64,000 nt of DNA, taken from an uncultured Bacteroidota bacterium (GTDB lineage Bacteria > Bacteroidota > Rhodothermia > Rhodothermales > DASSAV01). The notes below the pieces were generated by a model, which did not search any database, was not told the origin of the DNA, and was given only the letters and a program-made list of their open reading frames with translations. The position numbers were made by a program, and so were the translations under genes. The stretch lies in contig CAWBQO010000006.1 of the NCBI GenBank assembly GCA_963790965.1, positions 1,139,282-1,203,281 of the forward strand. Reading direction: 5' to 3'. Shown one piece after another: positions 54,280 through 54,462 of this stretch (position 1 is the first letter of the stretch; every line of letters begins with the position of its first letter).

Positions 54280-54462
54280 CTGCGGCCGAGCGCGAACATA
54301 TGTTGGCGGCCCGGTCCGGCGTTGGCTTAATGAACTGTTCAGTCTCGGAAGGCAGGGAAGGCGGGGCTGACCATCCTGAACGATCTCGTGGATCAGATGA
54401 CATGTGAGCCTTGTTCACCTCCCCTGGCGCGCCTCCCTTAAAGTAGGCTGTACGGGCCTACA
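54280..54462 (-). ncRNA. Predicted IS110 bridge RNA (5' hairpin, target-binding loop, donor-binding loop)
   Basis: The 274-nt leader upstream of the transposase contains CATCCTGAACG (54372-54382), the reverse complement of left flank 53172-53182. GATGACA (54396-54402) equals the reconstructed target across the insertion point. ATGAACTGT (54330-54338) equals core plus IS terminus 53180-53188. TATGTTG (54299-54305) is the reverse complement of IS terminus 54467-54473. Confidence 0.55.

What the first reader, a model, noticed from the sequence alone, without database searches (positions are those of the whole stretch)
54280..54462. Leader of the IS encodes a candidate bridge RNA whose loops match both the target and the IS ends
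Read on the transposase strand, the leader starts with a hairpin GTAGGC-ccgtaca-GCCTAC (54443-54461). Next comes a loop closed by AGGGAGGCG...CGCCTTCCCT that contains cauGUCAUCu-[GAUC-cacga-GAUC]-gUUCAGGAUGg. CGUUCAGGAUG is identical to 11 nt of the left flank (53172-53182). GUCAUC is the complement of GATGAC spanning the insertion point. Together the two segments cover 14 contiguous target nt, one per DNA strand. A second loop (about 54286-54348, tentatively closed by CCGAG/CTCGG) contains ACAGUUCAU, the IS 3' terminus plus core (9 nt). It also contains CAACAUA, complementary to TATGTTG at nt 3-9 of the IS 5' terminus. This order of 5' hairpin, target-binding loop and donor-binding loop is the architecture reported for IS621-type bridge RNAs (Durrant et al. 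2024; Hiraizumi et al. 2024). The donor right-guide match is only 7 nt and not contiguous with the core, so that part is weaker.
Basis: partly seen in the sequence, partly recalled or inferred. Interest (0 to 1): 0.8.

Follow-up and report, generated by a model that had tools for sequence, protein, structure and literature searches.

The report
IS110 insertion sequence's bridge RNA
The untranslated leader of this IS110-family insertion sequence encodes a bridge (guide) RNA whose two loops match its REP-like insertion site and its own ends, so it is a well-resolved but ordinary new member of a kind of mobile element described in 2024.

Summary
The finding holds. An intact IS110-family (DEDD plus Ser) recombinase gene lies at 53197-54201 on the minus strand. 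The element is 1,294 bp (53182-54475), flanked by an AT core, and sits inside a REP-like repeat. An unoccupied paralogous site lies at 46414-46427.

A covariance model built only from relatives hits the 64-kb window once, on this leader (E 1.3e-5). In relatives, all four guide segments covary with their own flanks or ends. At the same columns the window has:
- LTG UGUCAU, 6 of 8 to the left target
- RTG CGUUCAGGAU, 10 of 10
- LDG ACAGUUCAU, 9 of 9
- RDG CAU-c-GCUAU

- The target loop is closed by AGGGGAGGUG (54416-54425). AGGGAGGCG instead belongs to an outer helix that encloses both loops.
- CAACAUA is not the right donor guide. Its match is at chance level (p about 0.1) and it sits in a 46-nt hairpin insertion. 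The real guide is at 54265-54273.
- The RNA therefore extends to about 54238, beyond the reported end.

This is a new member of a known kind. Expression and activity are untested.

The parts
53197..54201 (-). IS110-family recombinase gene (334 aa, ATG at 54201, stop TGA at 53197-53199)
   Evidence: Pfam DEDD_Tnp_IS110 (2.8e-28) plus Transposase_20 (7.2e-22). Matches IS621 (8wt6, E 7.7e-34) and ISCro4 (9t56) over residues 10-323. D14, E63, D105, D108 and S248 are invariant among 40 homologues.
53182..54475 (-). The insertion sequence proper (1,294 bp), flanked by the AT core at 54476-54477 (upstream) and 53180-53181 (downstream). The non-coding left end is 274 nt; the right end is 15 nt after the stop codon.
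   Evidence: With the IS removed, the joined flanks are collinear with the paralogous repeat at 46380-46541, with no gap at the junction. Both termini are conserved in relatives.
54478..54483 (-). Left target (LT): TCTGTC on the transposase strand, immediately 5' of the core
53172..53179 (-). Right target (RT): CCTGAACG, immediately 3' of the core. Part of a REP-like hairpin, ATCCT-n11-AGGAT.
54467..54475 (-). Right donor (RD), the IS 5' terminus AGTATGTTG. It contains the -10-like TATGTT (54468-54473).
   Evidence: Conserved as NGTATGTT in relatives
53182..53188 (-). Left donor (LD), the IS 3' terminus ACAGTTC. The -35-like TTGACT lies at 53195-53200 and overlaps the stop codon.
   Evidence: Joining the ends gives TTGACT-N17-TATGTT, read directly from the sequence.
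54443..54461 (-). 5' stem-loop GUAGGC-ccguaca-GCCUAC
54426..54437 (-). P0 5' arm GGGAGGCGCGCC. It pairs with 54238-54247 and encloses both loops.
   Evidence: MFE and constrained folds. Equivalent flanking complementarity in 84 relatives averages -9.7 kcal/mol against -6.0 for permuted pairs.
54416..54425 (-). P1 5' arm AGGGGAGGUG, the true closing helix of the target-binding loop. It pairs with 54354-54363 (CGCCUUCCCU).
   Evidence: Covariance-model alignment and fold. In the family, all 9 P1 pairs show compensatory changes and 96% of cells are paired.
54397..54402 (-). Left target guide (LTG) UGUCAU, equal to LT4 plus the AT core. The 8-nt guide column reads CAUGUCAU.
   Evidence: 6 of 8 to the occupied site and 7 of 8 to the empty site at 46414-46433. 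Family LTG-LT identity is 6.14 of 8 against 3.51 permuted. L163 and L167 match 8 of 8.
54382..54394 (-). P3 inner hairpin of the target loop: GAUC-cacga-GAUC
   Evidence: Compensatory GGUC/GACC in L161 and L163.
54373..54382 (-). Right target guide (RTG) CGUUCAGGAU, complementary to core plus RT8 (ATCCTGAACG). The following G (54372) is at the handshake-guide position.
   Evidence: 10 of 10. In the family it sits at a fixed position and pairs 6.08 of 7 against 3.76 permuted. L163 carries CGUUCGCAAU against its own RT ATTGCGAACG, 10 of 10.
54340..54353 (-). P4 and P5 5' arms of the donor-binding loop (GCCUUCCG, GACUG). They pair with 54248-54262.
   Evidence: The same arms are seen by eye in L164, L163 and L167.
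54330..54338 (-). Left donor guide (LDG) ACAGUUCAU, equal to LD7 plus the core
   Evidence: 9 of 9. It covaries with the IS 3' end across relatives (ACAGAACAU, ACGGUACAU, AUAGUUCGU, UCAGUUCUU).
54275..54328 (-). P6 inner hairpin of the donor loop (AAGC ... GCUU) with a 46-nt GC-rich insertion at 54279-54324.
   Evidence: In the family, all 4 P6 pairs covary.
54265..54273 (-). Right donor guide (RDG) CAU-c-GCUAU. GCUAU pairs with core plus RD1-3 (AT AGT, one G.T wobble). CAU may pair with RD4-6 (ATG). The following G (54264) is at the handshake-guide position.
   Evidence: Sits at the homologous position just before the P5 3' arm. In 15 of 16 relatives a 5-mer here pairs with that element's own core plus RD1-3. 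21 of 31 are 5 of 5, against 7.1 permuted. CTATG is the only invariant block in the clade alignment.
54238..54262 (-). 3' arms of P5 (UAGUC), P4 (CGGAGAAGGC) and P0 (GUGCGCCCUC). This is the probable 3' limit of the structured RNA.
46414..46433 (-). Unoccupied paralogous target site, CCTGCTTGTC-AT-CCTGAACG on the transposase strand
   Evidence: The only exact 14-nt target match in the window. It matches 15 of the 16 guide-specified positions.

Best explanation
The 274-nt left end of a 1,294-bp IS110-group insertion sequence encodes a bridge RNA of about 225 nt, roughly 54463 to 54238 on the minus strand.

Shown here:
- The RNA is homologous to a structured RNA found upstream of related recombinase genes.
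- Its layout is a 5' hairpin, then an outer helix (P0) enclosing two stem-loops, each with an internal loop.
- The first loop carries UGUCAU on its 5' side. This has the sense of the top strand of the left target plus the AT core, so it would pair with the bottom strand.
[quoted passage not shown] Together they specify TGTC-AT-CCTGAACG, the conserved edge of a REP-like repeat.
- The second loop carries ACAGUUCAU (the IS 3' end plus core) and CAU-c-GCUAU (complementary to core plus the first 3-6 nt of the IS 5' end).

Inferred from IS621 and not tested here:
- The element excises as a circle. Joining the ends creates a promoter, TTGACT-N17-TATGTT, that transcribes the RNA.
- Recombinase dimers bind each loop and synapse the circle junction with a target site.
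- Ser248 together with the DEDD site exchanges the top strands after the AT core, and the Holliday junction is then resolved. The result is the insertion seen here.
For: - Recombinase family, catalytic residues and homology to solved bridge recombinases.
- Element boundaries and the empty paralogous site.
- A covariance model built from 11 relatives without the window gives a single hit in the window, on this leader (33.7 bits, E 1.3e-5). The same RNA is found in 92 of 100 sources searched, always just upstream of the gene.
- Helix covariation: 90% of cells paired against 71.5% in shuffles and about 50% when slid; 20 of 21 pairs show double changes.
- Guide-to-DNA covariation at the homologous columns: LDG; RTG 6.08 of 7 against 3.76; LTG 6.14 of 8 against 3.51; RDG 21 of 31 perfect against 7.1.
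- Closest clade: L163 has a different 10-nt RTG and 8-nt LTG, both matching its own flanks perfectly. L167's LTG matches 8 of 8. L164 shares the window's RTG and the same REP-like target.
- Thermodynamic folding of the window's leader, with or without the guides held single-stranded, gives the same architecture.
- Strand polarity and the discontiguous RDG agree with Durrant et al. 2024 (PMC11208160). The handshake position-7 logic agrees with Hiraizumi et al. 2024 (PMC11208158).
Against: - There are no expression, binding or recombination data.
- The fold of the whole leader is not unusually stable (z = -1.5).
- The LTG matches only 6 of 8 at the occupied site.
- The covariance-model alignment stopped inside the donor loop and paired P6 with GCUCG rather than GCUU. 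The RDG assignment in the window therefore rests on folding, on position next to the P5 arm, and on conservation within the clade. It does not rest on covariation within that clade, because all six members share RD AGTATG.
- Only one copy is visible and the nearest recombinase is 50% identical, so recent activity cannot be judged.
- No sigma-70-like promoter is present in the integrated copy.
- Both handshake G residues can pair with position 7 (C) of their own cognate DNA. In IS621, cognate pairing across both handshake positions (6-7) locked the complex before strand exchange.
Confidence: 0.9

Rival explanations
1. One reading: it is closed by CCGAG/CUCGG, and CAACAUA is the right donor guide pairing with nt 3-9 of the IS 5' end.
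For: The 7-nt complementarity exists. Extended to CAACAUAUG, it could pair with CAT[AGT]ATGTTG across a 3-nt DNA bulge. The covariance-model alignment did place the P6 3' arm at GCUCG.
Against: - A 7-nt match occurs in about 10% of shuffles.
- The segment is the apical stem-loop of a palindrome (I8).
- It lies inside a 46-nt insertion that is absent from most relatives and not conserved in sequence among L161-L167.
- In relatives the RDG lies after the P6 3' arm, directly before the P5 3' arm. At that position the window has GCUAU, matching AT-AGT.
Confidence: 0.04
2. The leader is an ordinary 5' UTR or regulatory region. Its similarity to the flank arises because the IS picked up, or resembles, REP-like sequence, and no RNA guidance is involved.
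For: The target is a repeat. The RNA segment GAUCC-N7-CGUUCAGGAUG has the same spacing as GATCC-N7-CGTTCAGGATG in the repeat (read directly). The whole-leader fold has z = -1.5.
Against: - Relatives inserted at unrelated sites carry a different sequence at the same columns, matching their own flanks.
- The stems covary.
- The recombinase belongs to the family shown experimentally to be RNA-guided.
Confidence: 0.03
3. This is a bridge-RNA element by descent, but this copy is inactive, a fossil whose RNA no longer functions.
For: Only a single copy is seen in 64 kb. The LTG matches only 6 of 8. A better-matching empty site 6.8 kb away remains unoccupied. The integrated copy has no promoter.
Against: - The reading frame is intact and all catalytic residues are present.
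- Both termini, all four guides and the junction promoter motifs are intact.
- Low expression from integrated copies is the reported normal state for IS621 (abstract of PMC13626964).
Confidence: 0.15

Closest known systems
IS621 bridge RNA and recombinase (E. coli; Durrant et al. 2024, Hiraizumi et al. 2024; PDB 8WT6)
   Same: - The recombinase has the same two domains and catalytic residues and aligns over its full length (E 7.7e-34).
- The RNA is encoded in the left end.
- The order is 5' stem-loop, target loop, donor loop.
[quoted passage not shown]
- The LDG is 9 nt.
- The RDG is discontiguous.
- A promoter is split across the circle junction.
- The target is a repeated extragenic element.
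   Different: - The pairwise alignment is long but weak, and the closest relatives of any kind are 50% identical or less.
- The core is AT rather than CT.
- The RTG is 10 nt (8 plus core), against 4-7 nt.
- The LTG matches fewer bases at this site.
- An extra outer helix (P0) encloses both loops.
- A 46-nt hairpin is inserted in the donor loop.
- The RDG bulge is 1 nt.
- Position 7 is C in both target and donor, so the handshake G residues can pair with cognate DNA too.
ISPpu10 (Pseudomonas putida), a REP-targeting IS110 bridge system (bioRxiv 10.64898/2026.03.19.712850)
   Same: Both insert into a repeated extragenic palindromic element, with the target overlapping a genomic hairpin.
   Different: - ISPpu10 lacks the 5' stem-loop; this element has one.
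- The ISPpu10 hairpin involves the left target. Here the hairpin (ATCCT-n11-AGGAT) involves the core and the right target.
- Whether the hairpin matters here is untested.
IS1111-group elements and seekRNA (Siddiquee et al. 2024, cited from my own knowledge; Durrant et al. 2024, Fig. 6)
   Same: The recombinase family and the two-loop guide logic are the same.
   Different: In IS1111-group elements the RNA lies in the right end, downstream of the gene. Here the right end is only 15 nt and the RNA is upstream.

Membership tests
IS110-group bridge RNA system (IS621 type) | Recombinase with a RuvC-like DEDD domain plus a Tnp domain carrying the catalytic Ser | tested here: met
   Pfam PF01548 and PF02371. 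D14, E63, D105, D108 and S248 are invariant in 40 homologues. Full-length match to IS621 and ISCro4 chains.
IS110-group bridge RNA system (IS621 type) | Long non-coding left end upstream of the gene, short right end, no terminal inverted repeats, and a shared core dinucleotide at both junctions | tested here: met
   The left end is 274 nt and the right end 15 nt. AT is present at 54476-54477 and 53180-53181. The flanks are collinear with an empty repeat copy.
IS110-group bridge RNA system (IS621 type) | [quoted passage not shown] | tested here: met
   A covariance model from relatives gives a single window hit (E 1.3e-5). Folds. Helix covariation. Caveat: the alignment was fitted to the model, and the hit is local (model positions 4-114).
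IS110-group bridge RNA system (IS621 type) | The 5' side of the first loop has the sense of the top strand of left target plus core (LTG) | tested here: met
   The window matches 6 of 8 (UGUCAU contiguous). Family mean is 6.14 of 8 against 3.51 permuted. L163 and L167 match 8 of 8.
IS110-group bridge RNA system (IS621 type) | The 3' side of the first loop is complementary to the top strand of core plus right target (RTG) | tested here: met
   The window matches 10 of 10. Family mean is 6.08 of 7 against 3.76 permuted. L163 covaries over 10 nt.
IS110-group bridge RNA system (IS621 type) | The 5' side of the second loop equals the IS 3' end plus core (LDG) | tested here: met
   9 of 9. It covaries in relatives.
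IS110-group bridge RNA system (IS621 type) | The 3' side of the second loop is complementary, discontiguously, to core plus the IS 5' end (RDG) | tested here: met
GCUAU pairs with AT-AGT (4 Watson-Crick pairs plus 1 G.T). CAU pairs with ATG after a 1-nt bulge. The position is homologous to the covarying RDG of relatives.
IS110-group bridge RNA system (IS621 type) | [quoted passage not shown] | tested here: inconclusive
   Joining the ends gives TTGACT-N17-TATGTT, read directly. None is found in the integrated copy. No circle or transcript data are available.
IS110-group bridge RNA system (IS621 type) | Match to a curated bridge-RNA covariance model | not testable with these tools
   An Rfam 15 scan at E up to 10 returned nothing relevant. 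The models of Durrant et al. were not available here.
IS110-group bridge RNA system (IS621 type) | The RNA is transcribed, binds the recombinase, and directs recombination that can be reprogrammed | not testable with these tools
   Experimental.
IS1111-group (RNA in the right end, seekRNA) | Guide RNA encoded downstream of the recombinase gene in a long right end | tested here: not met
   Only 15 nt separate the stop codon from the element's end. The covariance-model hit is upstream of the gene.

The most novel reading that the evidence does not exclude
This little-sampled clade (the window plus L161-L167, probably Rhodothermales-like hosts) may be a structural variant of the bridge RNA. Its distinguishing features would be:
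- an outer helix that ties the two loops into a three-way junction
- a 10-nt right target guide
- expandable hairpins in both loops
- handshake G residues that can pair with position 7 of both the cognate and the non-cognate DNA

In IS621, cognate pairing at both handshake positions 6-7 stalled strand exchange. If the position-7 pairing seen here is real, this clade would control strand exchange, or the coupling of the two loops, differently.
Probability: 0.15. Interest if true: 0.45.

Novelty: new member of a known kind. Interest (0 to 1): 0.3.

Why it matters
This gives a fully annotated natural bridge-RNA element from a lineage far from the characterised ones; its recombinase is 50% identical or less to anything else found. 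The predicted 16-nt target specificity is CATGTC-AT-CCTGAACG, and the same window contains both an occupied and an empty target. That makes it a ready test case for whether longer right target guides, an outer closing helix and REP-hairpin targets change the specificity or efficiency of bridge recombination. It does not change the known mechanism.

Tried and rejected
- Rfam scan of 52500-55200 at E up to 10: only a chance snoRNA match.
- Genome-collection scan with the single protein found nothing. It worked once an alignment was used as the query.
- RNAalifold on a plain MAFFT alignment of 22 leaders predicted only 3 pairs, because loop sizes shift the register. A hand-defined structure on that alignment was inconsistent in half the rows. 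I therefore built the model from 11 consistently aligned relatives, using helices P1, P2, P3 and P6 only.
- P4 and P5 could not be put into common columns. They rest on folding and on inspection.
- My first RTG test used LDG columns shifted by one and gave a false negative. It was corrected.
- Contig look-ups for P0005 and P0001 found nothing, so the host organism was not identified.
- The handshake-guide dinucleotide rule fits only at position 7. The second position is inconsistent within the clade (read).
- I considered the similarity between the P3 5' arm and the REP (GAUCC) as an extra guide and set it aside, because L163, L164 and L167 do not keep it.

Full report
**What is there**

Window 53197-54201 (minus strand) encodes a 334-aa protein with the two Pfam domains of IS110 transposases. 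It aligns over residues 10-323 with the solved bridge recombinases IS621 (8wt6, E 7.7e-34) and ISCro4. D14, E63, D105, D108 and S248 are invariant among 40 homologues. These correspond to the IS621 catalytic residues D11, E60, D102, D105 and S241 (PMC11208158). NCBI already names a 48%-identical relative an 'IS110 family RNA-guided transposase'.

**Boundaries and target**

On the transposase strand the junctions read ...TCTGTC-AT-AGTATGTTG... and ...ACAGTTC-AT-CCTGAACG....

- The element proper is 53182-54475 (1,294 bp), with the AT core at 54476-54477 and 53180-53181.
- The target lies in a REP-like repeat. The only other exact copy of the 14-nt site TGTCATCCTGAACG in the window is an unoccupied one at 46414-46427.
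- With the IS removed, the joined flanks align collinearly with that repeat copy over about 160 nt, with no gap at the junction.
- The insertion point is at the foot of the repeat's hairpin, ATCCT-n11-AGGAT.

All quoted strings are at the stated coordinates.

- The 11-nt leader-to-flank match is exceeded in about 1% of shuffles against a 60-nt target.
- The 7-nt CAACAUA match is exceeded in about 10%.

**Relatives**

The recombinase is isolated. Its best relative is 50% identical. Scans with a protein alignment gave 160 loci at 33-45% identity, mostly Bacteroidota and Rhodothermales. Contig look-ups gave the closest clade, L161-L167.

**Tests that need no alignment**

- In about 27 loci the same 9-mer occurs in the leader and 4-45 nt after the stop codon, and it differs between subfamilies: ACAGTTCAT, ACAGAACAT, ACGGTACAT, ATAGTTCGT, TCAGTTCTT. 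This is LDG = LD7 plus core.
- The reverse complement of core plus the next 5 flank bases is found 38-45 nt upstream of the LDG in most loci, with different sequences. The window has 10 nt at -44.

**Covariance model**

I built a model from 11 relatives, excluding the window, with 21 hand-assigned pairs.

- It hits the 64-kb window exactly once, at 54287-54424 on the minus strand (33.7 bits, E 1.3e-5). GUCAU and GUUCAGGAUG fall in the guide columns.
- It hits 92 of 100 sources searched (99 related loci plus the window), always just upstream of the gene.
- On the resulting alignment, 90% of cells are paired, against 71.5% in shuffles and about 50% when partners are slid. 20 of 21 pairs show changes on both sides. 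The caveat is that this alignment was fitted to the model.

**Guide-to-DNA covariation at model columns**

| Guide | Observed | Permuted control |
|---|---|---|
| RTG vs core+RT5 | 6.08 of 7 paired | 3.76 (max 4.58 in 500) |
| LTG vs LT8 | 6.14 of 8 identical | 3.51 (max 4.02) |
| RDG 5-mer vs core+RD1-3 | 21 of 31 perfect | 7.1 (max 14) |

For the LTG test, the 5' boundary of each element was chosen independently, using the RD motif and RDG complementarity.

In the closest clade:
- L163 has RTG CGUUCGCAAU against its own RT ATTGCGAACG (10 of 10), and LTG GCUGUCAU against GCTGTCAT (8 of 8).
- L167 has LTG UGUGCCAU against TGTGCCAT (8 of 8).
- L164 shares the window's RTG and the same REP-like flank.

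**Anatomy in the window** (minus strand)

- 5' hairpin: 54443-54461
- P0: 54426-54437 with 54238-54247
- P1: 54416-54425 with 54354-54363
- Conserved AACAAG, then P2
- LTG: 54397-54402
- P3: 54382-54394
- RTG: 54373-54382
- P4 and P5: 54340-54353 with 54248-54262
- LDG: 54330-54338
- P6: 54325-54328 with 54275-54278, holding a 46-nt insertion
- RDG: CAU-c-GCUAU at 54265-54273

The polarity is as in Durrant et al.: the 5' sides pair with the bottom strand, the 3' sides pair with the top strand, the core is in all four guides, and the RDG is discontiguous.

1. AGGGAGGCG belongs to P0. This outer helix also appears in relatives: flank duplex energy averages -9.7 against -6.0 kcal/mol for permuted pairs. 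The target loop is closed by AGGGGAGGUG.
2. CCGAG/CUCGG and CAACAUA lie in the inserted hairpin, which most relatives lack and which is not conserved within the clade.
3. The RDG is GCUAU, just before the P5 3' arm. CTATG is the only invariant block in the clade alignment. Across subfamilies this 5-mer tracks RD1-3: CCT/AGG, CTT/AAG, CGT/GCG, TGT/GCA, AGT/GCU.
4. The RNA therefore runs to about 54238, not 54280.

**Mechanism (inferred, not tested)**

Joining the ends gives TTGACT-N17-TATGTT across the core. The integrated copy has no sigma-70-like promoter. This fits the junction promoter described for IS621.

The G after the RTG (54372) and the G after the RDG (54264) occupy the handshake-guide positions, which pair with position 7 of the non-cognate DNA. 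Here position 7 is C in both target and donor, so cognate pairing at position 7 is also possible. In IS621, cognate pairing across both handshake positions (6-7) was inhibitory. I leave this unexplained.

**Verdict**

This is a genuine, apparently intact IS110-group bridge-RNA element. It is a new member of a known kind, from a poorly sampled clade. Expression and activity are untested, and the host was not identified.

Noticed in passing
window 46380-46541, 53046-53181, 54478-54600: A REP-like repeat family with two hairpin modules: AGATCCTTCACTGCGTTCAGGATGACA, and CCCGCCCGTGTCATGCTGAGCGAAGCGAAGCATCTCAG. The IS sits between two units. The unit at 46380-46541 carries the empty target, which matches the guides at 15 of 16 positions, better than the occupied site (14 of 16).
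   Followed up: partly
window about 62054-63210: A tandem array of the same repeat family with a 381-bp period. It has four copies of CGCTCGGGATGACA, each with two mismatches to the IS target in the right-target part. It also has interleaved GTCGGGATGACA copies.
   Followed up: no
L057, L133, L143, L157, L160, L111, L135, L088 (relatives): The first core base differs between the two junctions of the same element, for example LT-AT-RD on the left and LD-GT-RT or LD-TT-RT on the right. The LDG follows the right junction, while the LTG, RTG and RDG follow AT (G.U wobble is possible). This suggests that only the second core base is strictly shared in these subfamilies.
   Followed up: partly
L046, L062, L076, L101, L110, L121, L129, L136 (Flavobacteriaceae relatives): A second exact copy of LD plus core (TCAGTTCTT) sits immediately before the recombinase ATG, in addition to the LDG inside the donor loop. 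Its role is unknown.
   Followed up: no
window 54382-54394 and 53157-53182: The RNA segment GAUCC-N7-CGUUCAGGAUG (P3 5' arm through RTG) has the same spacing as GATCC-N7-CGTTCAGGATG in the target repeat. This is not conserved in L163, L164 or L167, so it is probably a coincidence.
   Followed up: partly
window 53195-53200: The -35-like TTGACT of the putative junction promoter overlaps the recombinase stop codon (TGA at 53197-53199). The TTG is conserved at this place in the right ends of relatives.
   Followed up: partly
L163:95-145: In L163 the inner hairpin of the target loop (P3) carries an insertion of about 30 nt, much as the window's P6 carries a 46-nt insertion. Both inner hairpins seem to tolerate expansions.
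   Followed up: no
window 52016-52981 and 54757-55440: The IS lies in the intergenic region between a methionyl-tRNA formyltransferase-like ORF (my own reading of its sequence; no domain search was run) and a downstream plus-strand ORF. No gene is disrupted.
   Followed up: no
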